From an uncultured Nitrososphaerota archaeon (GTDB taxonomy: Archaea > Thermoproteota > Nitrososphaeria > Nitrososphaerales > Nitrosopumilaceae), in NCBI GenBank assembly GCA_963701075.1, contig OY969559.1, forward strand, positions 1,504,001-1,568,000: a DNA stretch of 64,000 nucleotides, written 5' to 3'. The position numbers and the translations under genes are program-made. Positions 3,638-14,831 of this stretch are shown here, in pieces. Every line of letters starts with the position of its first letter. Positions within the stretch are counted from its first letter, which is position 1. The notes beneath the pieces were generated by a model that saw nothing but the letters and a program-made list of their open reading frames with translations, was not told the origin of the DNA and searched no databases.

Positions 3638-4564
3638 CTAGTTCTCTTGTACAAATACGTTCAATGACTCTTTGAGTCCCTTGTACCTGTTTCGTATCGT
3701 GACCTCGGTTACGCCTGCAGCCATGGCAATTACTTTCTGGGTAGTATTATCTCCATTTACAGTACATGACAGATATAGTGCGGCAGCTGCTAGCCCCATC
3801 GGGTCCTTTCCTGCGGAAAGTTCCATGTCGTTTGCGTCCTTTAAAATCTCAAGCGCTCTTCGCTTTACCTTCTCGCTTAATCCTGCTTGGCTTGCAATTC
3901 GTGACATGCATTTTATTGGATCAAGCACTGGCATTGTCATGTCAAGCTCTTCTAATAACAACCTGTAAGATCGTGATATGTCCTTTCTTTTTATATTAAT
4001 TTGACGCGCAATCTCGTTTAATGTCCTAGGAGTGCTAGATTCTCTGCATGCCATGTATAATGCCGCTGCAATAAGACCTGAGATTGACCTACCTTTTGTG
4101 AGTCCCCTTTCCAATCCCTTTCTGTAAATGTATGCTGTCTTTTCAATTACGGCGTCAGAGAGGGCAAGCTTGTCCCTCAGCCTGTTGAGTTCACTAAAAG
4201 CCTGTCTCAAGTTCTTGTCTGCTGACTCGCTAGCCTTGCTTCTGTTATCCCATGTTCTGAGACGATCCATAGTATGTTTCATTGAGGAAGAAAGCGGTTT
4301 TCCCATTGCATCTGTTCTACCATGCCCGATCATAGTTGCAAGTCCCATATCATGCACTGCAAGTGATGTTGGCATTCCTGTTCTTGCCCTGTCATCATAT
4401 TCTTCCTTTGTAAACGCGCGTGTTTCAGAACCCAAGTCTACAATACGATCTTGGATAACAAAACCGCAACCACTGCAAAATTTTTCTCCAGTAGAACTGT
4501 CTGTTACGAGTGAATCTTTTCCACATCGCATACAACTACCAGCATTATAATTATGTAAGACCAT
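3638..4564 (-). CDS. tfb: transcription initiation factor IIB
   Basis: Zn ribbon CMRC...CSGCG, HDMGLAT B-reader, two cyclin repeats, GKDPMGLAAAALY, VTEVTIRNRY. Confidence 0.97.
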   Translation of the reverse strand: MVLHNYNAGSCMRCGKDSLVTDSSTGEKFCSGCGFVIQDRIVDLGSETRAFTKEEYDDRARTGMPTSLAVHDMGLATMIGHGRTDAMGKPLSSSMKHTMDRLRTWDNRSKASESADKNLRQAFSELNRLRDKLALSDAVIEKTAYIYRKGLERGLTKGRSISGLIAAALYMACRESSTPRTLNEIARQINIKRKDISRSYRLLLEELDMTMPVLDPIKCMSRIASQAGLSEKVKRRALEILKDANDMELSAGKDPMGLAAAALYLSCTVNGDNTTQKVIAMAAGVTEVTIRNRYKGLKESLNVFVQEN

Positions 4565-4743
4565 ACAATTTGTCACCTGCATTGCATGACCTATCAATAA
4601 GAACTCTCGTATTTTGCGATGCATGGTTCAGGTTCTGTTGCGTTTTTTGTTGCTGATGTTCAGAAATCACAGAATTGATCAATCAACAAGGTAACAATGA
4701 CACAATTCAACATGCTTAATAGCGATGCAAGTTCTCAAATAAC

Positions 4744-5775: not shown

Positions 5776-6117
5776 ATGGGCCAAAAAGTATCAGGAATTG
5801 AAAAACTTCTTGCACCATCACTAAACAGAATAGAGGAAGAATTGAAAGTAATTCATGATGAAATGAATACAGTAAAGGCAAAGATAGATGAGACTAGCAA
5901 TAGGATTACAAAGATTGAAGATGACAATAGACGCCTTGCAAATAGAATAGATAAGATAGGCAGCGGTCTGCCAACCGAGGTGCAGGTCTCAATTGACAAC
6001 ATAAACGACATGGAACGACATGATAGAGATGAAATCGATGTTCTAAAACGTGGCATTGATGTTGCCCAAAGAAGGTTAGCCATCTTAGAGGCCAAAATGA
6101 AAGAACTAGGCAAATAA
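5776..6117 (+). CDS. coiled-coil hypothetical protein
   Basis: ORF track; heptad-rich 113 aa. Confidence 0.75.
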   Translation: MGQKVSGIEKLLAPSLNRIEEELKVIHDEMNTVKAKIDETSNRITKIEDDNRRLANRIDKIGSGLPTEVQVSIDNINDMERHDRDEIDVLKRGIDVAQRRLAILEAKMKELGK

Positions 6118-6190
6118 ATTACATTCCAAGATAGGTTCCATGTTTGAAAGAATTGCTTTGTCATTTTAGATAATTTGACGATCCTGTGAC

Positions 6191-6235
6191 CTAGAGAGAT
6201 TTTATGTTATGATCTCTTTTTCCTTTTAGGACCAT
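6191..6235 (-). pseudogene. cas1: casposase cas1 5' stub (unit 4)
   Basis: ATG GTC CTA AAA GGA AAA AGA GAT CAT AAC ATA AAA TCT CTC TAG = MVLKGKRDH-NIKSL*, matching MTLKGKQNHYNVKFL at 12065. Confidence 0.5.
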
Positions 6236-6452
6236 TCAATGAGGATTTCTTGTCAGGGTCATTTAGTGATGATTTCTTTTTGTCTAGATGCTTGATTCCA
6301 AAGCCTGCGAAAAAAACTAGCCAGCCGATAATAGTCACATACCCTATGACATTTTTAATCGAGTCCGATACATTATGCGAAACCGTAGAAAATATCCAGT
6401 TTAGGATGATCATAGAAATTCCTAAGATCATGATGATTGTGCCACGTTGCAT
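6207..6452 (-). CDS. two-TM small membrane protein (cargo of unit 4)
   Basis: ORF track; two hydrophobic helices; duplicated KKSSLN(D/G)P tail. Confidence 0.75.
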   Translation of the reverse strand: MQRGTIIMILGISMIILNWIFSTVSHNVSDSIKNVIGYVTIIGWLVFFAGFGIKHLDKKKSSLNDPDKKSSLNGPKRKKRS

Positions 6453-6457
6453 ACAAT

Positions 6458-6574
6458 CATAACTTTCGTACTGATCTTAAAGATTCCCCTCCAAACGAAT
6501 CATGATCGAGAATGCCTAGACAACGCCAGTTTTCACATGTAAAAGTCAGATGTACTATTTGTTTGCTATAAAAA
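6458..6574 (-). repeat. degenerate casposon-end/promoter repeat (unit 4)
   Basis: Aligns by eye with 12538-12656: TGATCTTAAA, AATCAT, CCTAG, CA.TTT.CAC, TAAA, TACTATTT. Confidence 0.55.
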
Positions 6575-6651
6575 GGAGGAACTTGATTTGATGCAAAGGC
6601 GTGACTAGTTGAAACTAAATATTTAAATCAAATTCCGTTTCATATGATGCA

Positions 6652-6909
6652 ATGTCCACAAAAACAATCGCACTAATATGTGCCGCTTTTGCAGGTGGCG
6701 TGATCGCAATAGGAATTGCGATGTCAGCAGGATCTGGATGGGAACCAGCAGGTCAGTATACCGGAATAAGCAATGCCGCGCATACGGTCAATAATTCATC
6801 GAGCTGCTATGCGTTTCAGACAGGATGCAATAGTACAAGCTATGGTTCAACAACTACCAGTTCAGACTATAGTGGCGCAGCTTTAAGCGGCTCCTATGGC
6901 GGACCATAG
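6652..6909 (+). CDS. small secreted or membrane-anchored Ser/Gly/Tyr-rich protein
   Basis: N-terminal hydrophobic helix; TTTAAA box upstream; T-run after stop. Confidence 0.75.
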   Translation: MSTKTIALICAAFAGGVIAIGIAMSAGSGWEPAGQYTGISNAAHTVNNSSSCYAFQTGCNSTSYGSTTTSSDYSGAALSGSYGGP

Positions 6910-7089
6910 ATTTAAAATCTATTATTTTTTTCATTTCATAAAGAAGTACAGCATTAATTTTTTCATCATGTAGGTTTGGGAATTATGAGAGAAAAGACTC
7001 TCTTTTGGCAAGAATATGTTTTTGGCTTTTGAAATTAAAATCAGTTAATGGCAAATCTTAAGTCATTACAGAATAATGTGATAAAAGAA

Positions 7090-7227
7090 ATGAGCGAGGA
7101 ACAATGTCTAGAATGTTTGTCCAAAAACACCTGCGAATACATGAACCCAATTGAGAAGAGCGACGGAATGCACTATTATTTTTTATGTGAAGATTGTAAA
7201 CATGAGTGGGAAATAATAAGAAAATAA
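7090..7227 (+). CDS. small zinc-ribbon protein (45 aa), TFS/RpoM C-terminal-like
   Basis: MSEEQCLECLSKNTCEYMNPIEKSDGMHYYFLCEDCKHEWEIIRK*; two CxxC motifs, the second followed by HEW. Confidence 0.75.
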   Translation: MSEEQCLECLSKNTCEYMNPIEKSDGMHYYFLCEDCKHEWEIIRK

Positions 7228-7394
7228 TGAAATTAGAATCCTAAAGCTTTACGACAATAAGAAATCATTCCATATTGTCAAACCGTTTGGTGAAAAGAAT
7301 AGAAAAATTAAACTTTAATTTCTACTGCAAAACCAAATCTGAGAATCAATCAAATTGTTATATACTAAGATTGTATGATATTATCCGAAAACAT

Positions 7395-7766
7395 ATGGAA
7401 GATACACATGAATCGTGCAAAATGGAAGGCGGTGCAGGATGTGGCTGTGGATCAATGTCGTCTCACGAACACTGCGGGTGTGATCAGATGGCATCTCATG
7501 GACACCATGGTTGTGGCGATGGTCATCATTCACATTCTGTGACAAGGATGTACAAGCGTGCATACATGGATGCGTTATATCAAGCCCAAGTAGAACGCCT
7601 AAGAAAAAGAATCGATGCCAAATTCGGGTCAACGCTTGACAAAATGGCTGATGCGGTAGCAGAGTCGTTCGGGAAGATGTGGGAGTCCAAGATGGCAAAA
7701 ATGGAGGCAAGACAGGAGCTGGAAGCCAAACTTAGGAAGATTCTTTCTGAAACAACTAAAACCTAA
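7395..7766 (+). CDS. protein with His/Cys-rich N-terminus and helical C-terminus (putative metal binding)
   Basis: GCGCGSMSSHEHCGCDQMASHGHHGCGDGHHSH; ATG at 7395 follows a TTATATA box. Confidence 0.8.
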   Translation: MEDTHESCKMEGGAGCGCGSMSSHEHCGCDQMASHGHHGCGDGHHSHSVTRMYKRAYMDALYQAQVERLRKRIDAKFGSTLDKMADAVAESFGKMWESKMAKMEARQELEAKLRKILSETTKT

Positions 7767-7956
7767 AATATTTTTTCCTCGGTCTTTTTTTTAAATAATC
7801 CATCTAGAGAAACCGATTCTAGAGAATGAAGTTTAGACGGATAGAATAGAAGGTAATGATCCTAAAGTTATGAATGGATTAGCCAATTTTTATGAATTAG
7901 CATTGAGAAAGGAAAAATTTGATCATCTTTAAAAATACTGGGAGTAAGTAGTCATA

Positions 7957-8943
7957 TTGAAAAAAACTGCATATCTTCTGATAGCATTAATTTTTGTATC
8001 AAGTATGACAATAAGTTCGTCAACTAACGCGGTTGCACAACAAACACCTACAAATAATTTTAACACAATTAATTATCCTAGCGCCACTAATACATTTGCT
8101 CTTGGAATAAACAATGCTGGTCAGATAGTTGGGTATTATTATAACAGTCAAGAGAACTACCACGGCTTTCTACTCTCATCTGGTAACTATACCTCAATTA
8201 ATTACCCCGGTGCCAGTAGTACGACTGTTCTTGGAATTAACAATGCTGGTCAGATAGTTGGATATTATTATGATAATTCAGGGCACCTCCATGGCTTTCT
8301 ACTATCGTCTGGCAACTATACCTCAATTGATTACCCAGGTGAAAATAGTACATCGGCTTTTGGAATTAACAATGCGGGTCAGATAGTTGGAAATTATATT
8401 GATAGTTCAGAACATTTCCATGGCTTTCTACTCGCGTCTGGCAACTATACCTCAATTGATTACCCCGGTGAAAATAGTACCGCTCCTTATGGAATTAACA
8501 ATGCGGGTCAGATAGTTGGAAATTATATTGATAGTGTGGGACACTACCACGGCTTTCTACTCGCGTCTGGCAACTATACCCCAATTGATTATCCCGGTGA
8601 AAATAGTACCGCTCCTTATGGAATTAACAATGCTGGTCAGATAGTTGGATATTATTATAACAATCTAGAGAATAACCACGGCTTTCTACTCTTGTCTGGC
8701 AACTATACCTCAATTGATTACCCAGGTGCGAATAGTACAGCTGCTTTTGGAATTAATAATGCCGGTCAGATAGTTGGAAGTTATTACGATGATTCAGGAC
8801 ACTACCACGGCTTTCTACTCTCGTCTGGTGAGACTATACAAACTACTCCTGAATTTGGCCCTGTTGCCCCAATCATACTTGGCATTTCAATTCTGTCAAT
8901 AATTATTTTATCGGTCAGAACTAGATTCTTACACAGATCCTAG
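7957..8943 (+). CDS. secreted HAF-like repeat beta-propeller protein with PEFG-CTERM anchor
   Basis: Signal peptide, six GINNAGQIVG...HGFLL repeats, PEFG motif plus TM and basic tail. Confidence 0.9.
   Translation: MKKTAYLLIALIFVSSMTISSSTNAVAQQTPTNNFNTINYPSATNTFALGINNAGQIVGYYYNSQENYHGFLLSSGNYTSINYPGASSTTVLGINNAGQIVGYYYDNSGHLHGFLLSSGNYTSIDYPGENSTSAFGINNAGQIVGNYIDSSEHFHGFLLASGNYTSIDYPGENSTAPYGINNAGQIVGNYIDSVGHYHGFLLASGNYTPIDYPGENSTAPYGINNAGQIVGYYYNNLENNHGFLLLSGNYTSIDYPGANSTAAFGINNAGQIVGSYYDDSGHYHGFLLSSGETIQTTPEFGPVAPIILGISILSIIILSVRTRFLHRS
8068..8830 (+). repeat. six tandem 129-bp (43-aa) coding repeats
   Basis: CA(C/T)GGCTTTCTA recurs at 8161, 8290, 8419 and onward with 129-nt period. Confidence 0.9.
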
Positions 8944-9117
8944 AGGTTCTCCAAACAAATCATATTTCCCGTTACGATGTGAATCACTGAAAACGGAATC
9001 AGGCACACAGGAGCCTGTGTTAGTAGAAGCAAGTTGAATTGCCCTAGGATGAAAAATACGAGAGATTGATCCTAGATTTAGCCCCATCTTAAAATACAAT
9101 TACTGCGTAATTATACT

Positions 9118-9471
9118 ATGCAAGGCTCAAGTGCACTAGATAATTACGATTTAAAAAGAGCACATCAAGCTCTAAAAATGCTGCTTATTGATAGAAGTAA
9201 TGAATTTCGCCTTTTTGCTCGAGGAATTGGGTATCCGACTAACACAAAAGACTGGGAATTAATAGTCCTGAATTTTTGTCTTGATTATATAGAATGTTTC
9301 CATACGTGGACTGCCGATGATCCGCCAGACCATCACCATATCCACAAGTGCATGACACAGATGAGACAGATGGCTAGAGGAAAATCAACCATGACTGAAG
9401 TCACACATCTTCAGAATACCGCATATCTAATTGCAGAGGATTTTAAAGCAATTTACAAGAGAATAGAATAG
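9118..9471 (+). CDS. hypothetical protein
   Basis: ORF track 117 aa; TTAAAA box upstream. Confidence 0.8.
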   Translation: MQGSSALDNYDLKRAHQALKMLLIDRSNEFRLFARGIGYPTNTKDWELIVLNFCLDYIECFHTWTADDPPDHHHIHKCMTQMRQMARGKSTMTEVTHLQNTAYLIAEDFKAIYKRIE

Positions 9472-9474
9472 TAG

Positions 9475-9525
9475 AACCCTTTTAGAAATTCAACGTTGTA
9501 ATGATATGTTTTCTTTTTAGAGCAA
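9475..9525 (-). pseudogene. cas1: casposase cas1 5' stub (unit 3)
   Basis: Reverse complement TTG-CTCTAAAAAGAAAACATATCATTACAACGTTGAATTTCTAAAAGGGTTC (...HYNVEFLKGF) aligns with the stub starting at 12065. Confidence 0.6.
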
Positions 9526-9538
9526 GATTTACTCTTTT

Positions 9539-9721
9539 TTATCTAGTGAGATAGAAACAATTCCATTTCATATGAGGAATAGATTGCATACTAGGCTGCG
9601 CACAATGTAGGATGTAATGCGCTGGCATATGGGGCGTTACAAGTAAATGTACTGTAGCAATTGTGATTCCAATTCCAACTAGTACTGAAATTATTGTTAT
9701 TGCAATAACTGATTTATTCAT
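9539..9721 (-). CDS. single-TM small protein (cargo of unit 3)
   Basis: ORF track; N-terminal TM; starts 20 nt from the repeat-borne TATA box. Confidence 0.7.
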   Translation of the reverse strand: MNKSVIAITIISVLVGIGITIATVHLLVTPHMPAHYILHCAQPSMQSIPHMKWNCFYLTR

Positions 9722-9726
9722 AATAT

Positions 9727-9850
9727 AATTACGTCAGTATTGATCTTAAACTATCTTTAAATCATAACGTGTCTATTACGTGAGTTGAGAACTTTTGTTC
9801 GTAAAGTTGGGGTTTTTATTTTTGCTTGCTGTCTACAAAAAGACAGCCCC
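9727..9850 (-). repeat. casposon-end/promoter repeat (unit 3) with terminal GGGG
   Basis: Reverse complement begins GGGGCTGTCTTTTTGTAGACAGCAAGCAAAAATAAAAACCCC; degenerate direct copy of 12538-12656. Confidence 0.7.
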
Positions 9851-9893
9851 ATCAGGCCTAGAAATTTCCGTATGACTTGCAGTCACGTTGTGG

Positions 9894-10124
9894 TTAATCT
9901 CCTTTTTTTCCTCTGAGCAGTTCTGACATGTCACCTAAAAGGTAAATGAATCCTATTGCAAACATTGTACCTGAAATCATCAGTAATGCAAAACCTAGAA
10001 AATCAACTTGAGAGTAATTTTCAATATTGGCGCCATTTAGATAGTTCCATGATTCGTAAAGCCCAACTATTGATACCGTGGTCAGAATAATTTCAAACAG
10101 CATTGTTTTTCCTGTCATGGTCAA
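9894..10124 (-). CDS. two-TM small membrane protein
   Basis: ORF track; two hydrophobic segments. Confidence 0.7.
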   Translation of the reverse strand: MTMTGKTMLFEIILTTVSIVGLYESWNYLNGANIENYSQVDFLGFALLMISGTMFAIGFIYLLGDMSELLRGKKGD

Positions 10125-10167
10125 AATATTCCTCTTTCTTTTTCTTCCAAGTCCATAATCTGTTCTT

Positions 10168-10350
10168 CTACTGACTTATATTGACATTCTCGTATGACAT
10201 ATTTTTGCCATACCATTCTTCGATCTCAGGTTCTTTGAATGAGTCGGTGGTATTTTTGAGAACAATGTTTGAATCTTTTACGTTTATTGAAAAACCGTAG
10301 CCCTTTAGGAATTTTATATTGTAATAATTTCGTTTTTCTATCTGTGTCAT
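10168..10350 (-). pseudogene. cas1: casposase cas1 N-terminal fragment (unit 2)
   Basis: MTQIEKRNYYNIKFLKGYGFSINVKDSNIVLKNTTDSFKEPEIEEWYGKNMSYE resembles the N-terminus of thaumarchaeal casposon Cas1 as recalled; truncated at 60 aa. Confidence 0.75.
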
Positions 10351-10358
10351 AAATAAAA

Positions 10359-10760
10359 TTATTCCAACAATTTGCCGGTGACGGCACCAACAAAATTAAT
10401 TTGACTACCATGTTCGCTACTTATTGAAAAATAACATTCCCAAGTGACTTCCCAGACATACTCGTTATTCTCGTGATTCTTAAATGGAGAGGCAATAGCC
10501 AAAGACATATCCTTCATAGTTCTTTCATCTACGGCAAACAGAGTATCGTTTTTTACATGAAGTAAGTGTATGCCTACATTACGTAATTCATTAGGACTAT
10601 TGTCTGCACAAAGAGATCTCTGCATGGCAACGTCAAACGCTTTCTGTTTGGATAAAAAATGTGGATTTCCAAGATAGTCAAAGAGAATCAACAGTCCGCT
10701 GATTATGCCGATTGAAAAAATAACAATTGTTGCAACAGTAATTGGTTTTTTTCTCATCAC
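10359..10760 (-). CDS. membrane-anchored PepSY-like small protein (cargo of unit 2)
   Basis: N-terminal TM; LSKQKAFDVA...YVWEVTW...FVGAVTGKLL is a PepSY-like pattern. Confidence 0.75.
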   Translation of the reverse strand: MMRKKPITVATIVIFSIGIISGLLILFDYLGNPHFLSKQKAFDVAMQRSLCADNSPNELRNVGIHLLHVKNDTLFAVDERTMKDMSLAIASPFKNHENNEYVWEVTWECYFSISSEHGSQINFVGAVTGKLLE

Positions 10761-10764
10761 ATGA

Positions 10765-10803
10765 CATTACTTTCGTAATGATTTAACCACTTTCCAACAA
10801 ATC
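10765..10803 (-). repeat. partial casposon-end promoter repeat (unit 2)
   Basis: CATTACTTTCGTAATGATTTAACCACTTTCCAACAAATC versus TATTACTTTTATCATGATCTTAAATCATTTCCAACAAATC at 12538. Confidence 0.7.
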
Positions 10804-10960
10804 CCACGACCATAATGACTCTAGGTATGACGCCTTTTCATGATGTCAGCGGCGGGGATTGCATTTTTGTAGACAAAGTAAAAATGTTTTACCCCTGTTT
10901 TACTCGTAGAAATATGTTATTGTCGCAAAACTTTAGAAGATTAGAAAATAATCAAATTCA

Positions 10961-11884
10961 ATGAATGTCATAATAGTGGTTGGAATCTGTCTGTTGATGG
11001 CATTCTCTTGTTCCAATCTTGTTTTTGCACAAAAAGTTCTCACAAATCCCAATATTACAGCCACGACTGACAAATCATCCTACATCTTTGGTGATACAAT
11101 TGTAATTTCTGGCACTGTTAAAACTGTTCTACAGGGAAATATTATGACCATCCAAATTTTAGATCCCTATAGTAATTTAATTCAGACAGCACAGGGTAGC
11201 GTTGCTCAAGATGGCTCTTATGCAGACGCTGTGGAGATAGCCGGCACTGGGTGGAAATCAAGTGGTGTTTATACAGTTCTAGTTCAATATGGTTCTGAAG
11301 TTCAAACCCAAACAACTTTTGCATTTACGGCAACAACGGCTCCGATCAATGATACATTCCAAGTACAAATTCCAAATAATAGTCAGATCTTTAATGTGCC
11401 ATATACAATATTCGGAGGATCAGTGACGAACATGTCTGTTAATGCCTTGAATCCTTCTCTGACTGTATCCATACTACCAGTTAATTACGGCACAATTACA
11501 CTTTCGCTCCCACGGTCTTTGCTTGATGCAAAGACAAGTAATGGTACGGACGAACCGTTTACCATCTTAATTGATGGTATACAAATTATACCACAAAAAG
11601 AACAAGTGACTTCAAGTGATAGAACTTTGTCAATACAGTTCCTGCGAGGAGATAAAAATATCCAAATTATTGGTACCAGTGTGACACCTCAAAATAATTC
11701 TACTATTAACACGCCAAGCACAAATTTGACCACAAGTCAACAACCATCCGCACAAGTCACTAACATGTCAAAACCTATTTCGGCAGTACCTGAATTTCCT
11801 AATGGAATAATCCCCTTTATAGCTGCATTAATCGTCATGGTTGTACTTACAAGAACTACGTTTAGACAAATAATTAGGACATGA
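10961..11884 (+). CDS. secreted surface protein with PEF-CTERM anchor
   Basis: Signal peptide; TDKSSYIFGDTIVISG; LPRSLLDAK; VPEFP plus TM. Confidence 0.9.
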   Translation: MNVIIVVGICLLMAFSCSNLVFAQKVLTNPNITATTDKSSYIFGDTIVISGTVKTVLQGNIMTIQILDPYSNLIQTAQGSVAQDGSYADAVEIAGTGWKSSGVYTVLVQYGSEVQTQTTFAFTATTAPINDTFQVQIPNNSQIFNVPYTIFGGSVTNMSVNALNPSLTVSILPVNYGTITLSLPRSLLDAKTSNGTDEPFTILIDGIQIIPQKEQVTSSDRTLSIQFLRGDKNIQIIGTSVTPQNNSTINTPSTNLTTSQQPSAQVTNMSKPISAVPEFPNGIIPFIAALIVMVVLTRTTFRQIIRT

Positions 11885-11918
11885 TTCTAAAGTTATGAAC
11901 GAGTCAATGCCGATCTCT

Positions 11919-12065
11919 TTAAATTATTTCGAGAAAACTGAAGTGTGAATTGAATGGGTCAGATGTATTTTTGAGAAATATTTTAGAGTTTTTTACGTTT
12001 ATTGAAAAGCCGTAGCCTTTTAGGAATTTTACGTTGTAGTGATTTTGTTTCCCTTTAAGAGTCAA
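11919..12065 (-). pseudogene. cas1: casposase cas1 N-terminal fragment (unit 1)
   Basis: TTG start overlaps the upstream TGA: MTLKGKQNHYNVKFLKGYGFSINVKNSKIFLKNTSDPFNSHFSFLEII*; close to 10168..10350. Confidence 0.75.
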
Positions 12066-12532
12066 TTTGGATGTAATACGATTGAAACGAATCCATAAGT
12101 TAGAAGACCCATGCCGAGAATTTCAAAAAATACTACTATGATTATCCATTTTGCTTGTTTGAATTCGTCTTCCGTCACTCTCTTTCTGCCAATAGAAATG
12201 TAATACACAAACCAAATCATGTCTATGCAAACTATCATTCCACCAAGCGAATATTTGCCAAGGTCACTAACAGCTACTAATCGAAAAGATGCGATAGTAG
12301 GCACAATTCCAAGAATCAAAACTTCCATGGATTCGATTAGATAATGATTTACCTTTGGGATACGTCTTACAAAAATCAAAAATAAACCAAAGACAGAGAA
12401 GCCAATGACAGTAACAAGATCTTTCCATTCTTGATCTAGTTTCAAATATGCGTCAAAAACAGCACGTAATAGAATGAATAATGCCGTAACCAGCAATATG
12501 GTAATAACTATGGAACGTGGCTTGAGTTTCAC
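12062..12532 (-). CDS. multi-TM membrane protein (cargo of unit 1)
   Basis: ORF track; about five hydrophobic helices. Confidence 0.8.
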   Translation of the reverse strand: MKLKPRSIVITILLVTALFILLRAVFDAYLKLDQEWKDLVTVIGFSVFGLFLIFVRRIPKVNHYLIESMEVLILGIVPTIASFRLVAVSDLGKYSLGGMIVCIDMIWFVYYISIGRKRVTEDEFKQAKWIIIVVFFEILGMGLLTYGFVSIVLHPN

Positions 12533-12638
12533 AGAGTTATTACTTTTATCATGATCTTAAATCATTTCCAACAAATCATACTTTCGTTATTACCTAGTTA
12601 GCTTCAATTTCCACGCCTAAACGGGGGGTTTACTATTT

Positions 12639-14831
12639 TTACTCTTTATCTACAAACTCATCTGCTGTCGGAGGTTCTGGACTGAGACCCTTTCTCTTTC
12701 TAAGATCAGCCACGATGGTTGACAGGATAGAGTTTGGAACTGGCGTCCATGCCTTAAAGTGAGTGTTCCACATTGCTTTTCCTGCAGTCTGCCCACGCAT
12801 TACCTCAGACAAGTCAAATGTTTCAGATGCAGGAATCTCTCCAGTGATAATATTTACAACACCTTTTTGTTCCATGTTTAGAACCTTGCCCCTCTTTCCT
12901 GATATGACACCTGCTACGTTGCCAATGAGTTCTTGCGGAATCCTGACCTCAATTCCAAGTGTTGGCTCTAGCAGTACTGGTTGAGCAAGCAACATTGCAC
13001 CCATGCATGCACGCCTTGATGCAGGTCCTAGTTGTGACAGACCTCGGTGTGCCGGGTCTTCGTGTGGTACAAAATGATGGAATGTAAACTTGCATCCCCT
13101 TACCTGTTCTCGAGTAAGTGGGCCTTCCTTCATGGTATCATCAAATCCTGAAAGTATAGAATCGGTTGATTCCTGAACAAACTGGACACCTTTTGTGCCG
13201 TCAACCATAACATTTCCTCTGGGATCAAACCTCATCACACGTTTTGCGTCGTCTCCGTCCCAGCCGACTTCTTTCAATATCTTTTGTACTTCCTTCTTGT
13301 CTTTGTATTCATTTAGTGTGCCGTTTCTTATCATCTCAGCTACCTTCTCGTCGAGCGGTTCTACTTTCAGAAATATCTTGTTGTGTCTGTTAGGTGATTT
13401 TGCCATGATAGGTCCTGCAGAACCACGAATTGTCTCCCTATAATTTATCAAAGGTTGCGAAGTGACAATATCCACTTTGGCATCTGCAATCAATGCTGTT
13501 GCAATCTCAAGGTGAAGCACACCCATGCCGGCAATCACAGTCTCTCCGCTTTCCTCGTTTATCTTTACGACCAAGTTGGGGTCTTCAATTGTAATTCTGT
13601 TTAGTGCCTCGACAAGTTTTGGCAAGTCTTTTGGATGTTTTGGTTCTACTGCAATTTGCACAACTGGTTCGGACACATACTGGATTCCCTCAAATGTATG
13701 AACGCCTGCTACTGTAGATATTGTCTGGCCTGCCCTTGCATATTCCAATCCCAAAAGTGCCGGAATGTTTCCTGCTGCAAGTTCTCCTACCATCTCTCGC
13801 TGGTTGCCCATGAAAAAGTTGACAGACTGGATTCTTCCCTCTCGTTTTGTATCAATGATATGAATCCTGTCACCATCTTTTATCTTGCCAGAAAATAATC
13901 TCCCTATTGCCACAGGACCAGCGGCCGGGTCAACTGTCATGTTTACAATCATCATTATGGCAGGGCCATTATCGTCACAACTGAGCAGTGCCTTTCCAAT
14001 GTCAGAGTCAAGATCACCTTTCCAAATCTTTGGAATTCTATACCTTTGTGCAACGTCAGGCGGTGGATGATGTTTTACTACCATTCCAAGAACTGCATCA
14101 TATAGCGGAGCCTTTTCTGCAAGATCCTTGACACTTCCGCCCTCAGAATAGGCAGCAAAAATATCTTTGAATGATATTCCTTTTTTCTTCATCACGTCGG
14201 CATTAAATCCCCACTTGTCCTTGGCAGAACCAAATGAGACGCTACCGTCCTGAATGCTTACTTTCCACTTTTCCTTGTATTCAGGTTCTGCATAAATGTC
14301 AATTAGCCTGTTAAAGTTGGTCACAATCTCAAGCAGCCATTCCTGCATCTTGTCAGGTGTTAATCTTAATTCCTTTATGAGACGGTCAATCTTGTTGATA
14401 TAAAGTACTGGTCGCACCCTCTCTTCTAGCGCTTGGCGGGTTACTGTCTCGGTCTGGGTCATGATACCCTCTACAGAGTCAGATACCACAACTGCCCCAT
14501 CAATTGCCCTAAGGCTTCTAGTCACACGGCCAGTAAAGTCAATGTGACCTGGAGTATCAATCATGTTGATGACATATTCTTGATCATCTTTTTCATAGAG
14601 TAGAGTAACATTTGCCTGCACGATGGTCATCTGCCTGTCTTGCTCCAATTTCATCGAGTCAAGTGCAAGCGCCTGTCCTGCCACAGATGGACTGATGATA
14701 CCGCTTGATGCAAGAAGACTATCACTCATTGTAGTTTTGCCGTGATCTACATGAGCTATCACACCAAAATTTCTGATGTGGCTCTTGTCTCCAATAATTT
14801 TGAGAATCTGCTCAGTCGCCTTAAATTTCAT
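12639..14831 (-). CDS. fusA: translation elongation factor aEF-2
   Basis: AHVDHGKTT, DTPGH, NKID GTPase motifs; HEDPAHRG diphthamide loop; 730 aa. Confidence 0.99.
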   Translation of the reverse strand: MKFKATEQILKIIGDKSHIRNFGVIAHVDHGKTTMSDSLLASSGIISPSVAGQALALDSMKLEQDRQMTIVQANVTLLYEKDDQEYVINMIDTPGHIDFTGRVTRSLRAIDGAVVVSDSVEGIMTQTETVTRQALEERVRPVLYINKIDRLIKELRLTPDKMQEWLLEIVTNFNRLIDIYAEPEYKEKWKVSIQDGSVSFGSAKDKWGFNADVMKKKGISFKDIFAAYSEGGSVKDLAEKAPLYDAVLGMVVKHHPPPDVAQRYRIPKIWKGDLDSDIGKALLSCDDNGPAIMMIVNMTVDPAAGPVAIGRLFSGKIKDGDRIHIIDTKREGRIQSVNFFMGNQREMVGELAAGNIPALLGLEYARAGQTISTVAGVHTFEGIQYVSEPVVQIAVEPKHPKDLPKLVEALNRITIEDPNLVVKINEESGETVIAGMGVLHLEIATALIADAKVDIVTSQPLINYRETIRGSAGPIMAKSPNRHNKIFLKVEPLDEKVAEMIRNGTLNEYKDKKEVQKILKEVGWDGDDAKRVMRFDPRGNVMVDGTKGVQFVQESTDSILSGFDDTMKEGPLTREQVRGCKFTFHHFVPHEDPAHRGLSQLGPASRRACMGAMLLAQPVLLEPTLGIEVRIPQELIGNVAGVISGKRGKVLNMEQKGVVNIITGEIPASETFDLSEVMRGQTAGKAMWNTHFKAWTPVPNSILSTIVADLRKRKGLSPEPPTADEFVDKE

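What the first reader, a model, noticed from the sequence alone, without database searches (positions are those of the whole stretch)
6191..12668. Tandem casposon-end array at the aEF-2 3' end behaving like a gene-cassette archive
Seen: four minus-strand units with the same order, end-repeat/promoter, then a different small membrane gene, then a cas1 5' stub. Units are 12538-12656/12062-12532/11919-12065; 10765-10803/10359-10760/10168-10350; 9727-9850/9539-9721/9475-9525; 6458-6574/6207-6452/6191-6235. The promoter core TGATCTTAAA lies exactly 20 nt from the cargo start in three units (6472, 9741, 12552). The two units farthest from aEF-2 have the shortest, most degraded stubs. Established: thaumarchaeal family-1 casposons insert in the 3' end of aEF-2. 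Inference: serial insertion followed by loss of most of each element leaves promoter plus one variable cargo gene, giving a roughly chronological, integron- or CRISPR-like array of captured membrane genes. No intact cas1 or polB is in the window.
Basis: partly seen in the sequence, partly recalled or inferred. Interest (0 to 1): 0.92.

Follow-up and report, generated by a model that had tools for sequence, protein, structure and literature searches.

The report
Casposon left-end graveyard behind aEF-2
Downstream of an essential translation gene, this ammonia-oxidising archaeon keeps a stack of broken self-replicating transposons, each reduced to its end repeat, a promoter, one ever-different small gene and a scrap of its integrase gene, and at least some of those small genes appear to have been kept by selection.

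Summary
Window 12653-6166 (minus strand), directly after the aEF-2 stop codon, carries four co-directional modules. Each has a family-1 casposon terminal repeat, a TATA-like box about 29 nt before a start codon, a different small membrane ORF (156, 133, 60, 81 aa), and the 5' end of a casposase (cas1) gene (about 40, 59, 19, 12 codons).

- two inward-facing terminal repeats (10880, 9837) and 11/13-nt target-site copies between elements;
- at least one inverted module (repeat, 307-aa surface-protein gene, 5-codon cas1 stub);
- that the pattern is family-wide.

The genome has no family-1 casposase or casposon polymerase, so the array is a fossil.

In relatives:
- a casposon end abuts the aEF-2 stop in 25 of 25 usable loci;
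- cas1 5' stubs outnumber intact casposases about 3 to 1;
- the gene between end repeat and cas1 is hypervariable (4 homologous pairs among 29 units);
- three archived genes have dN/dS of 0.06-0.38.

Serial site-specific insertion followed by decay is well supported. Strict chronology and an integron-like active system are not. This is a new variant of known tandem casposon arrays.

The parts
12639..14831 (-). aEF-2 gene (730 aa). Its last codons plus stop form the casposon target.
   Evidence: ORF. 97.7% aa identity to the aEF-2 of L006.
12641..12653 (-). 13-nt target / target-site duplication copy GTAGATAAAGAGT, preceded by the leader GAGTTT
   Evidence: Sequence. Matches the 13-bp TSD ATTGATAAAGAGT plus TTT leader defined in vitro (PMC8464041 passages).
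12533..12640 (-). Left end 1: terminal repeat AAAAATAGTAAACCCCCC..., the conserved block ATGATTTGTTGGAAA, and a TATA-like box TTTAAGATCA (12561-12552)
   Evidence: nhmmer E 3e-22 genome-wide. 94% identical to the left end in G033 and 90% to that in L015..
12062..12532 (-). Slot gene U1, 156 aa, about 5 hydrophobic segments
   Evidence: Its only 3 homologues found in 61 genus genomes all lie directly upstream of a cas1 gene.
11946..12065 (-). cas1 stub 1 (aa 1-40 of about 356)
   Evidence: E 1.3e-17; E 7e-18. Homology to the L006 cas1 ends at window 11950, and the next match is to L006 6973-7032.
10880..10944 (+). Terminal repeat facing the other way: the end of the inverted unit that carries the 307-aa gene
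   Evidence: Regex match. nhmmer E 2.2e-5 genome-wide.
10961..11884 (+). Inverted slot gene g307: secreted protein with a C-terminal anchor. Its TGA stop overlaps the ATG of a 5-codon cas1 stub.
   Evidence: The homologue in G033 is followed by a cas1 5' hit (E 8.6e-10). dN/dS 0.35-0.38.
11881..11898 (+). 5-codon cas1 mini-stub (reads MILKL*) behind g307. A second copy of the motif lies at 7851-7874.
   Evidence: Sequence. Direct repeat D9. Inference supported by the G033 arrangement.
10869..10879 (.). 11-nt spacer between two back-to-back terminal repeats. It is a copy of the target, oriented with the g307 unit and so inverted relative to aEF-2.
   Evidence: plus-strand GTAGACAAAGT against the aEF-2 end GTAGATAAAGAGT.
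10761..10868 (-). Left end 2 (AAAAATGCAATCCCCGCC...GGGATTTGTTGGAAA...TTAAATCA)
   Evidence: nhmmer E 7.2e-5 genome-wide..
10359..10760 (-). Slot gene U2, 133 aa, N-terminal anchor
   Evidence: 22 other matches in 17 of 60 other genus genomes. The two best (70%; 68-69%; G038, G059) have no casposon end or stub beside them.
10174..10350 (-). cas1 stub 2 (aa 1-59)
   Evidence: E 4.9e-23; E 2.4e-12.
9894..10124 (-). 76-aa membrane ORF between stub 2 and the next repeat
   Evidence: 55% identical homologue in L011.
9837..9880 (+). Opposite-facing terminal repeat closing element B (AAAAAGACAGCCCC...). Extent approximate.
   Evidence: Regex match. 21-nt inverted repeat with left end 2, 81% complementary (I8). 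Not found by the left-end profile in the locus scan at E<0.05 nor listed in the genome-wide scan at E<=10.
9824..9836 (-). 13-nt spacer GTAGACAGCAAGC, a direct copy of the target
9722..9823 (-). Left end 3 with TTTAAGATCA at 9750-9741
   Evidence: nhmmer E 0.011 genome-wide..
9539..9721 (-). Slot gene U3, 60 aa, one hydrophobic segment
   Evidence: Homologue in the G014 array with the same promoter and a similar short stub, dN/dS 0.26.
9462..9522 (-). cas1 stub 3 (about aa 4-22)
   Evidence: searches (E 3.8e-4 genome-wide; E 0.053), alignment A3.
9118..9471 (+). 117-aa ORF converging on stub 3. Candidate inverted slot gene, with a TATA-like box at -29 and a 15-nt match to the unit 3 promoter.
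   Evidence: I24. Weak evidence: no end-profile hit.
8922..8982 (-). Fragment of a further left end (ATGATTTGTTTGGAG block) with no gene behind it
   Evidence: nhmmer E 0.6 genome-wide and 0.03 in the locus..
6453..6574 (-). Left end 4. The terminal repeat has decayed. The promoter block with TTTAAGATCA (6481-6472) is intact.
   Evidence: nhmmer E 0.9 genome-wide. 84% identical over 87 nt to the aEF-2-proximal unit of G022..
6207..6452 (-). Slot gene U4, 81 aa, two hydrophobic segments. Its C-terminal tail reads through the cas1 stub in another frame.
   Evidence: Syntenic orthologue in G031 with 81 of 81 codons aligned, dN/dS 0.18. CDS 82% identical with 1 gap, against flanks at 71-73% with 9-17 gaps.
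6166..6236 (-). cas1 stub 4 (about 12 codons, LKGKRDH-NIKSL*)
   Evidence: Alignment A3. nhmmer E 2.1, rank 6 genome-wide. Position supported by G022.
5776..6117 (+). 113-aa coiled-coil gene: the conserved host flank that closes the landing pad
   Evidence: Follows the last casposon-derived sequence (stub unit or end repeat) in G047, G058 and G005, and the U4 unit in G000 and G031.

Best explanation
The stretch from the aEF-2 stop codon (12641) to about 6166 is the landing pad of family-1 casposons, filled with their wrecks.

Shown:
- The 13-nt target plus TTT leader sits at the end of aEF-2, and a casposon terminal repeat begins at the stop codon.
- At least five terminal repeats, two internal target copies and four to five cas1 5' stubs lie downstream.
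- Each co-directional module has the same layout: terminal repeat, conserved subterminal block, an A/T box 26-32 nt before the start codon, one gene, then the cas1 start, which in intact elements of relatives overlaps or closely follows that gene's stop.
- The gene in that slot is different in almost every element, even between elements whose left ends are 90-94% identical.
- The genome has no family-1 casposase and no casposon polymerase.

Inferred mechanism:
1. A casposon integrates at the aEF-2 target, duplicates it, and so regenerates a target next to aEF-2.
2. Later arrivals, in either orientation, push earlier ones away from aEF-2. They may also use internal target copies, because every terminal repeat ends in TTTTT and supplies the TTT leader.
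3. Deletions then remove casposase, polymerase and the rest of the element. Recombination between inverted terminal repeats flips segments.
4. What persists is the part that is still useful or harmless to the host: a self-contained, probably leaderless, promoter-plus-gene module.
5. The cas1 stub is the eroding margin of the deletion, because the slot gene's stop abuts the cas1 start.
6. For U3, U4 and the 307-aa gene, purifying selection indicates domestication. For U1 and U2 this is untested.
For: Stub identity.

Terminal repeats and spacers. Independent left-end profile.

Target: matches the published TSD and leader (PMC8464041 passages).

Intact elements with the same layout:
- L006: aEF-2, repeat, 94-aa gene, 356-aa cas1.
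- L007: 8.4-kb casposon with perfect 57-nt repeats abutting the aEF-2 stop, followed by a second left end with a 95-aa gene and a stub.
- G058: full casposon plus one stub unit.

No casposase or polymerase in G000.

Site always occupied: of 26 published aEF-2 loci examined (30 returned, 4 unpublished left out), 1 had only 3 nt downstream. Of the other 25, 24 have a left-end profile hit starting at the stop. 5 of these are training sequences. The 25th (G035) has a repeat-like sequence by eye plus a cas1 5' hit.

Stubs dominate:
- Genus: 34 N-terminal-only matches in 26 of 56 published genomes, against 9 full-length (my count).
- Family: about 50 N-terminal-only matches, against 18 full-length and about 7 C-terminal-only, in 149 published genomes (my count).
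- 30 stubs in fetched loci end at aa 13-88.

Slot hypervariability:
- 29 units give only 4 homologous pairs.
- One left-end lineage (90-94% identical) carries a 156-aa (G000), 85-aa (G033) or 187-aa (L015) gene. In G031 the same lineage (homologous to window 12564) carries a 252-aa gene.

Promoter: an A/T box starts at -26 to -32 in 16 of the 28 left ends listed. L006 joins them if its start is moved to the downstream ATG.

Selection (NG86):
- U4: 0.18 against syntenic G031, and 0.06-0.30 against G033 and G022.
- U3: 0.26.
- g307: 0.35-0.38.
- U4 CDS has 1 gap, against 9-17 gaps in its relic flanks.

Turnover: G031 shares window 7235-2008 and the aEF-2 side down to 12564. It has 1.9 kb of other sequence in place of 12564-7235.
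Against: - No expression data: no RNA run was listed, so the promoters are inferred from conservation and spacing only.
- Stub 4 and left end 4 are not significant genome-wide on their own (E 2.1 and 0.9).
- dN/dS below 1 could partly date from when the genes still rode active casposons. This is least likely for U4 against G031, which are syntenic and in the same relic state.
- U1 and U2 have no orthologue pair to test.
- U2 belongs to a family with many chromosomal copies, so being an ordinary host-type gene is not the same as being kept for a casposon-related reason.
- The order of units does not fit simple proximal insertion.
- Inversions are inferred from orientation differences between G000 and G033 and from one inverted spacer. 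They were not observed directly.
- The many alignments ending at aa 31-37 may be an artefact, because conservation drops after about aa 35. Exact stub lengths in distant genomes are therefore uncertain.
Confidence: 0.75

Rival explanations
1. Neutral debris. The modules are leftovers of recent insertions. Left end, gene and stub survive only because of where deletions happen to start and stop, helped by the protection an essential neighbour gives, and the small ORFs do nothing for the host.
For: - Unit 1 abuts the essential aEF-2, so large deletions removing it would often be lethal.
- U1 has no detectable function.
- Proximal units turn over fast between close relatives.
- Some slots in relatives have decayed (L035 unit at 6961: a 56-aa ORF in a 722-nt slot).
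Against: - Units 2-4 are not next to aEF-2, yet keep open reading frames.
- U4 is collinear over 81 codons with dN/dS 0.18 and 1 gap, while its flanks carry 9-17 gaps.
- U3 and g307 also show dN/dS of 0.26-0.38.
- cas1 is lost in every unit while the adjacent gene is intact in every unit of the window.
Confidence: 0.15
2. Non-autonomous mini-casposons. The 1-1.8-kb pieces bounded by terminal repeats on both sides (12640-10880 and 10868-9837) were internally deleted before they arrived. A casposase supplied by another element inserted them as such, as happens with MITE or Ds elements.
For: - Both pieces have inverted terminal repeats, with 11-13-nt target copies between them.
- The family-1 casposase integrates a roughly 1-kb mini-casposon carrying only 20-bp repeats in vitro and tolerates many substrates (PMC8464041 passages).
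- Comparable repeat pairs flank short stub-bearing pieces in G056 (L017).
Against: - Piece A is better read as two convergent left-end modules, each with its own cas1 stub.
- No near-identical copy of either piece was found in the loci examined.
- Stub lengths differ from unit to unit.
- This genome has no casposase.
- L006 shows an intermediate in place: intact cas1 but no polymerase, with the same downstream junction block.
Confidence: 0.15
3. An active cassette system. The locus works like a chromosomal integron or proto-CRISPR that acquires, orders and perhaps exchanges promoter-gene cassettes, with the left end and the cas1 stub serving as recombination arms.
For: - Precise, conserved slot boundaries.
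- One left-end lineage carries four unrelated genes.
- The site is occupied in all 25 usable loci.
- The integrase is a Cas1 homologue using a leader plus a 13-nt repeat.
Against: - No resident integrase, no attC-like sites, and each module has its own promoter.
- Exchange by homologous recombination is not shown.
- The differing slot genes can equally come from separate insertions of related casposons. G000's close relative L006 has a left end only 76% identical, while aEF-2 is 93% identical.
Confidence: 0.08

Closest known systems
Tandem family-1 casposons NitNF5-C1/C2 in the ef-2 gene of Ca. Nitrosopumilus adriaticus NF5 (Krupovic et al. 2019, PMC6563490; passages read)
   Same: Same casposon family, same target gene end, repeated use of one site, and terminal repeats separated by a shared target duplication.
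   Different: Those are two complete elements. Here no element is complete. There are at least six relic modules in both orientations, each reduced to end, promoter, one gene and a cas1 5' stub.
Tandem casposons, inactivated copies and solo-TIRs in Methanosarcina (Krupovic et al. 2016, PMC4779613; passages read) and deteriorating second casposons (Krupovic et al. 2014, PMC4046053; passages read)
   Same: Site-specific re-insertion gives arrays. Old copies decay. Remnants outnumber complete elements.
   Different: Those belong to family 2 with tRNA or intergenic targets, and the remnants described are bare terminal repeats. Here the characteristic remnant keeps an intact, apparently selected gene with its promoter.
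Tn7 islands at attTn7 downstream of glmS (a comparison drawn in PMC4046053 and PMC4779613)
   Same: The transposon recognises the 3' end of an essential conserved gene, inserts just downstream, and piles up, leaving inactivated copies and cargo.
   Different: Unrelated transposition machinery. No comparable fixed one-gene slot next to the transposase gene is known to me (recalled, not searched).
Chromosomal integron cassette arrays
   Same: A fixed chromosomal site accumulates many small, unrelated, often membrane or unknown-function genes delivered by site-specific recombination.
   Different: Integrons have a resident tyrosine integrase, attI/attC sites and promoterless cassettes read from one promoter. 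Here there is no integrase, each module has its own promoter, and each is the stump of a whole transposon.
CRISPR arrays (leader, repeat, spacer)
   Same: A Cas1-family integrase, a leader-adjacent insertion site and duplication of a short repeat at each insertion. The window holds three recognisable copies of the 13-nt repeat.
   Different: The inserts are 1-1.8 kb gene-bearing relics, not spacers of about 30 nt. One repeat is inverted. There is no processing or interference machinery linked to it. The genome's real CRISPR-cas locus is elsewhere (L001).

Membership tests
Family-1 casposon (autonomous element) | Cas1-family casposase of the family-1 clade (about 350 aa, no HTH) | tested here: not met
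   Only 5' pieces of about 12-59 codons are present. The single intact Cas1 in the genome is CRISPR-linked.
Family-1 casposon (autonomous element) | [quoted passage not shown] | tested here: not met
   PF03175 gives only a sub-threshold hit elsewhere in the genome. ORFs of 5 complete casposons from relatives find no polymerase in G000.
Family-1 casposon (autonomous element) | Terminal inverted repeats | tested here: met
   Five terminal repeats match the consensus seen in 10 other loci. Profile hits. Inverted pair I8.
Family-1 casposon (autonomous element) | Insertion at the 3' end of aEF-2 with a 13-bp target duplication | tested here: met
   The repeat starts at the stop codon. The 13-nt target is at 12653-12641, with copies at 9836-9824 and, as 11 nt inverted, at 10879-10869. 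Published TSD.
Casposon-derived relic (remnant of a family-1 casposon) | Sequence homology of ends and cas1 fragment to intact elements at the same site in relatives | tested here: met
Non-autonomous mini-casposon (MITE-like) | Both terminal repeats, no casposase, flanked by a direct target duplication | tested here: inconclusive
   Repeats are present on both sides of 12640-10880 and 10868-9837, but one spacer is inverted, and piece A looks like two convergent left ends.
Non-autonomous mini-casposon (MITE-like) | Evidence of mobilisation: same short element at several sites or in several genomes | tested here: not met
   No copy of pieces A or B was found in the fetched loci. This was a limited sample, not a dedicated search.
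Integron | intI tyrosine integrase with attI, and promoterless attC cassettes read from one promoter | tested here: not met
   No integrase among the ORFs scanned in the array. Each module carries its own TATA-like box. The repeats are casposon ends.
CRISPR array | Regular short direct repeats separated by short spacers of similar length | tested here: not met
   The only regular tandem repeat in the region is the 129-nt coding repeat of the 328-aa gene. Target copies are 1-1.8 kb apart.

The most novel reading that the evidence does not exclude
Family-1 casposons are delivery vehicles for a single promoter-equipped, hypervariable gene cassette held between the left end and cas1. Nitrosopumilaceae hosts systematically strip the transposon and keep the cassette. 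The aEF-2 flank is therefore a casposon-fed accessory-gene archive, functionally comparable to a chromosomal integron. The conserved left end and the cas1 5' stub may also act as homology arms that let resident relics swap cassettes with incoming elements. The resulting leader, 13-nt repeat, short insert, repeat arrays would be natural intermediates of the kind the casposon-origin hypothesis for CRISPR requires.
Probability: 0.25. Interest if true: 0.85.

Novelty: new variant of a known kind. Interest (0 to 1): 0.62.

Why it matters
Casposons are studied mainly as the ancestors of CRISPR adaptation. Little is known about what they do to their hosts. These results suggest four things.

1. In ammonia-oxidising archaea, the aEF-2 flank was occupied by a casposon end in every locus examined.
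2. The commonest trace of a casposon is not a bare repeat but a module of promoter, gene and cas1 stub.
3. The gene in that module is drawn from a very diverse pool. It includes AbiV-type HEPN, HNH, cupredoxin, TPR and many small membrane proteins.
4. Hosts keep some of these genes under purifying selection after the transposon is gone.

That would make casposons a route of gene gain in streamlined archaeal genomes. It also gives natural examples of repeated Cas1-family integration building repeat-separated arrays beside a leader. If the slot genes prove to act in exclusion or defence, the locus would be an archaeal counterpart of transposon-fed defence islands.

Tried and rejected
- RNA evidence: the look-up of sequencing runs could not be reached twice. 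It then listed no RNA holder.
- Function of U1-U4, g76, g117, g307 and g163: nothing reached a curated cut-off in Pfam, and there were no matches in PADLOC or NCBIfam. The closest Pfam match was U4 to DUF2627, 21.7 bits against a cut-off of 22.4. The protein atlas gave only unnamed clusters scoring below 0.9 for U1.
- Right end of element A: I first read the repeat at 10880 this way. I dropped it when the 307-aa gene proved to end in a cas1 mini-stub and to sit in a slot in G033.
- Deletion hot spot at cas1 codon 33-38: I considered this because many matches end there. I rejected it as unproven, because conservation of the protein falls after about aa 35, so local alignments would stop there anyway.
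- U4 next to aEF-2 in G022 as proof of chronological order: rejected. It may be an independent insertion of a related casposon (54-61% aa identity, dS saturated).
- L006 and G000 unit 1 as orthologous left ends with a swapped gene: rejected. The left ends are only 76% identical, against 93% for aEF-2.
- The bacterial promoter/terminator scanner was not used because it does not model archaeal promoters.
- The dN/dS run for the TFB gene failed on a coordinate slip and was not repeated.
- Literature: four searches and passages of four papers turned up no description of left-end, gene and stub arrays or of a variable slot. Supplements are closed. Supporting Table S2 and data file 1 of PMC6563490, and the additional files of PMC4046053, might list such remnants.

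Full report
**What is there**

The window lies in a 1.92-Mb single-contig genome. Its closest named relatives are Nitrosotalea MAGs. aEF-2 occupies 14831-12639 on the minus strand. All coordinates below are read in that direction.

The gene ends ...GAGTTT GTAGATAAAGAGT. The T of the TAA stop is the last base of that 13-mer. The sequence AAAAATAGTAAACCCCCCGTTTAGG... begins at 12640. The same arrangement recurs at 21 places in 10 other loci: a 13-nt block ending in GAGT or a close variant, then AAAAA[T/G]-N3-8-CCCC. In L007 it forms the perfect 57-nt terminal inverted repeats of a complete 8.4-kb casposon that abuts the aEF-2 stop.

The 13-mer and the preceding TTT match the target defined biochemically for the family-1 casposase of Ca. 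Nitrosopumilus koreensis: a 13-bp TSD ATTGATAAAGAGT with a minimal TTT leader (passages of PMC8464041).

*Unit 1*
- Left end 12640-12533, 156-aa ORF 12532-12062, cas1 stub 12065-11946.

*Unit 2*
- Left end 10868-10761, 133-aa ORF 10760-10359, stub 10350-10174.

*Unit 3*
- Left end 9823-9722, 60-aa ORF 9721-9539, stub 9522-9462.

*Unit 4*
- Left end 6574-6453, 81-aa ORF 6452-6207, stub about 6236-6166.

*Evidence that the stubs are Cas1*
- Stub 2 finds 23 of 71 longer candidates, all PF01867. The full-length ones are about 340-358 aa, at 57-78% identity over 82-98% of the query.
- A profile of seven intact casposases from other genomes matches aa 1-40, 1-59 and 4-22 (E 1.3e-17, 4.9e-23, 0.053).
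- A DNA profile of the first 75 nt of cas1 from 27 foreign sequences, run against the whole genome, returns only six hits at E<=10. Four are the four stubs, at E 7e-18, 2.4e-12, 3.8e-4 and 2.1.
- Stub 4 is thus not significant alone. It lies exactly behind a gene whose promoter and coding sequence are 76-84% identical to the aEF-2-proximal unit of G022, where a 30-codon stub follows.

*Evidence for the left ends and the cargo*
- The left-end profile (25 foreign sequences) gives E 3e-22, 7e-5, 0.011 and 0.9 genome-wide for the four ends.
- The 10-mer TTTAAGATCA occurs three times in the window. All copies are on the minus strand, each 20 nt from the start codon of U1, U3 or U4.
- All four proteins have hydrophobic segments.

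*Opposite-facing repeats and spacers*
- Two further terminal repeats face the other way, at 10880 and 9837.
- Back-to-back repeats are separated by 11 nt (10869-10879) and 13 nt (9824-9836). Both spacers are copies of the target.
- The first spacer is inverted relative to aEF-2.

*An inverted unit*
- The repeat at 10880 leads into the plus-strand 307-aa gene (10961-11884).
- Its TGA stop overlaps the ATG of ATGATTCTAAAGTTATGA, a five-codon relic of the cas1 start.
- In G033 the homologous gene is co-directional with aEF-2 and is followed by a cas1 5' hit (E 8.6e-10).
- The 307-aa gene is therefore another slot gene in an inverted unit.

*Weaker additional pieces*
- The 117-aa gene (9118-9471) converges on stub 3 and has a U3-like promoter (I24).
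- A gene-less left-end fragment lies at 8982-8922.
- A second copy of the mini-stub motif lies at 7851-7874 (D9).

*The far boundary*
- The 113-aa coiled-coil gene (5776-6117) follows the last casposon-derived sequence in G047, G058 and G005, and the U4 unit in G000 and G031.
- It marks the far edge of the landing pad.

**The genome has no autonomous casposon**

- PF01867 finds one Cas1, inside a cas3-cas6-cas1-cas2-cas4 cluster.
- PF03175 gives only a sub-threshold hit in an 854-aa ORF.
- ORFs of five complete casposons from relatives find nothing in G000 beyond the two long stubs, TPR noise and one HNH fragment elsewhere.

**How general it is**

*Occupancy of the aEF-2 site*
- Among the 30 best aEF-2 loci of the genus, I analysed the 26 from published genomes. 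One had only 3 nt of downstream sequence.
- Of the other 25, 24 have a left-end profile hit starting at the stop codon. Five of these are training sequences.
- The 25th (G035) has a repeat-like sequence by eye and a cas1 5' hit.
- No empty site was seen.

*Stubs against intact genes*
- With the casposase P0003 as query, I count 34 N-terminal-only matches in 26 of 56 published genus genomes, against 9 full-length genes.
- At family level I count about 50 N-terminal-only matches, 18 full-length and about 7 C-terminal-only in 149 published genomes from 25 genera.
- Thirty stubs in fetched loci end between aa 13 and 88.
- Multi-stub arrays occur in G004, G056, G016 and L011.

**The slot**

*Layout*
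- In 29 units, the ORF between terminal repeat and cas1 starts 62-177 nt from the repeat's outer end. In the common left-end type this is mostly 103-121 nt.
- The ORF ends overlapping the cas1 start or within 17 nt of it in most units.
- An A/T box starts 26-32 nt before the start codon in 16 of the 28 listed left ends. L006 joins them if its start is moved to the downstream ATG.
- This is the spacing expected for an archaeal TATA box driving a leaderless transcript. That expectation is established knowledge and was not tested here.

*Variability*
- Only 4 homologous pairs exist among the 29 proteins.
- Left ends that are 90-94% identical (G000 unit 1, G033, L015) carry unrelated genes of 156, 85 and 187 aa. 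G031, whose left end is homologous to the window down to 12564, carries a fourth gene of 252 aa.
- Left-end similarity does not follow host relatedness. L006 is 93% identical to G000 in aEF-2 but only 76% in the left end. The proximal units are therefore separate acquisitions.

*Contents*
- Pfam matches over cut-off: HEPN_AbiV, cupredoxin, HNH (two) and TPR.
- Sub-threshold or weak matches: DUF922-like (two), Mrr-like and PepSY.
- One integrase-like protein in a Nitrososphaera element.
- 10 of 20 had no match.
- 18 of 29 have a hydrophobic segment.
- U1's three homologues in the genus all sit directly upstream of a cas1 gene or cas1 remnant of a second casposase clade.
- U2 belongs to a family with 22 other copies in 17 genomes. 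The two closest have no casposon end or stub beside them.

**Are the archived genes kept?**

*U4*
- It is syntenic in G031, between the 85-aa gene and the 113-aa gene.
- 81 of 81 codons align, with dN 0.126, dS 0.687 and ratio 0.18.
- Its coding sequence is 82% identical with 1 gap. The relic left end and stub beside it are 71-73% identical with 17 and 9 gaps.

*Other genes*
- Against G033 and G022, U4 gives ratios of 0.06-0.30.
- The 307-aa gene gives 0.35-0.38 in three genomes.
- U3 gives 0.26 against a G014 copy that has the same promoter and a similarly short stub.

*Limits*
- These are short genes and simple NG86 estimates.
- Part of the divergence may predate the loss of cas1.
- U1 and U2 could not be tested.

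**Order and dynamics**

*For polarity*
- Decay increases with distance from aEF-2 (scores).
- Close relative G031 shares window 7235-2008 and the aEF-2 side down to 12564. It has 1.9 kb of other sequence in place of 12564-7235.
- Three of the four genomes with an aEF-2 C-terminal 200 aa listed at 100% identity to G000's (G031, G032, G006) show three different terminal repeats at the stop codon.

*Against strict chronology*
- The 307-aa unit is shared with G033 and, as a 3' remnant, with L006. It lies nearer aEF-2 than units 2 and 3.
- Unit 3 recurs in more distant G014.
- Several genes are flipped between G000 and G033.
- Every terminal repeat ends in TTTTT, so each internal spacer is also preceded by the minimal TTT leader. 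Insertion at internal copies is therefore conceivable. This is an inference.

**Literature**

I read passages only, not whole papers, and supplements are closed.
- Tandem complete family-1 casposons at ef-2 are reported for one Nitrosopumilus, and two casposons for Ca. Nitrosotalea devanaterra (PMC6563490).
- Tandem and inactivated family-2 casposons and solo-TIRs are reported in Methanosarcina (PMC4779613).
- A deteriorating second casposon and the Tn7 analogy are in PMC4046053.
- My four searches found no description of left-end, gene and stub modules, of their arrays, or of a hypervariable slot.

**Verdict**

The locus is best described as a casposon landing pad filled with domesticated or decaying left-end modules. 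It is not an integron or a CRISPR-like device. It is a new variant of a known phenomenon, and of moderate to good interest to people who study archaeal mobile elements and the origin of CRISPR.

Claims that rest partly on unpublished genomes: only the tool-printed tallies. My own counts exclude them.

Noticed in passing
L005:1501-2255 (G000:C1:583898-584652, outside the window): A fifth module at another target. A host gene ends ...ATTGAGCCTCAATAA and is followed at once by a terminal repeat (AAATAGAACACCCC), then a gene with an HEQGHFD motif like the DUF922-type slot genes of L015 and L025, then a cas1 stub (aa 14-38). Relatives show intact casposons of a second casposase clade (about 35% identical) beside the flank ATTGAGCCACAAT or ATCGAGCCACAAT.
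   Followed up: partly
G000:C1:196515-196984 and 1648601-1648663 (outside the window): Further left-end profile hits. Two opposed copies of the promoter block lie near 196.5-197.0 kb (E 2e-9 and 6e-4). A terminal-repeat match lies at 1,648,601 (E 6e-8), 2.2 kb from a fragment resembling the HNH slot gene of L030 (1,646,189-1,646,404).
   Followed up: partly
window 6207-6240: The U4 reading frame runs on through the cas1 stub in a different frame, giving a basic tail (...PKRKKRS). The tail is conserved in G031 (...SKRKKRS), so stub DNA seems to have been recruited as coding sequence.
   Followed up: partly
window 7957-8943: A 328-aa secreted protein made of 129-nt tandem coding repeats (five in-register 300-nt copies spaced 129 nt apart, 75-82% identical to the first). 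NCBIfam HAF repeat (102.8 bits) and a sub-cutoff PEFG-CTERM sorting signal. It lies inside the casposon landing pad and was not found at the aEF-2 loci of G031, G033 or L006.
   Followed up: partly
window 3638-4624: A TFIIB-like gene just beyond the landing pad, 97% identical in protein to that of G031. TFIIB is listed among genes common in thaumarchaeal integrated elements (PMC6563490). I did not test whether this copy is host or mobile.
   Followed up: no
L020, L022, L030: Intact family-1 casposons (cas1 about 72% identical to P0003) at a third target, flanked by TTTACGCCAAGTA. L022 has repeats 7.9 kb apart.
   Followed up: no
G163:C19:25184-25348: cas1 aa 3-33 lies directly next to aa 324-350 on the same strand. 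This is an internal deletion of the casposase gene that keeps both of its ends.
   Followed up: no
aEF-2 loci of the genus: Many contigs break within a few hundred bases downstream of aEF-2 (for example G029, G042, G052, G056, G004, G045). This fits repeated casposon ends hindering assembly, so short-read MAGs probably under-report these arrays.
   Followed up: no
L001 (G000:C1:1911908-1915765): The genome's own CRISPR-cas adaptation genes (cas3 fragment, cas6, cas1, cas2, cas4) lie about 400 kb from the window. This Cas1 is only 28% identical to the casposase (aa 54-266), and the match does not cover the N-terminus held by the stubs.
   Followed up: partly
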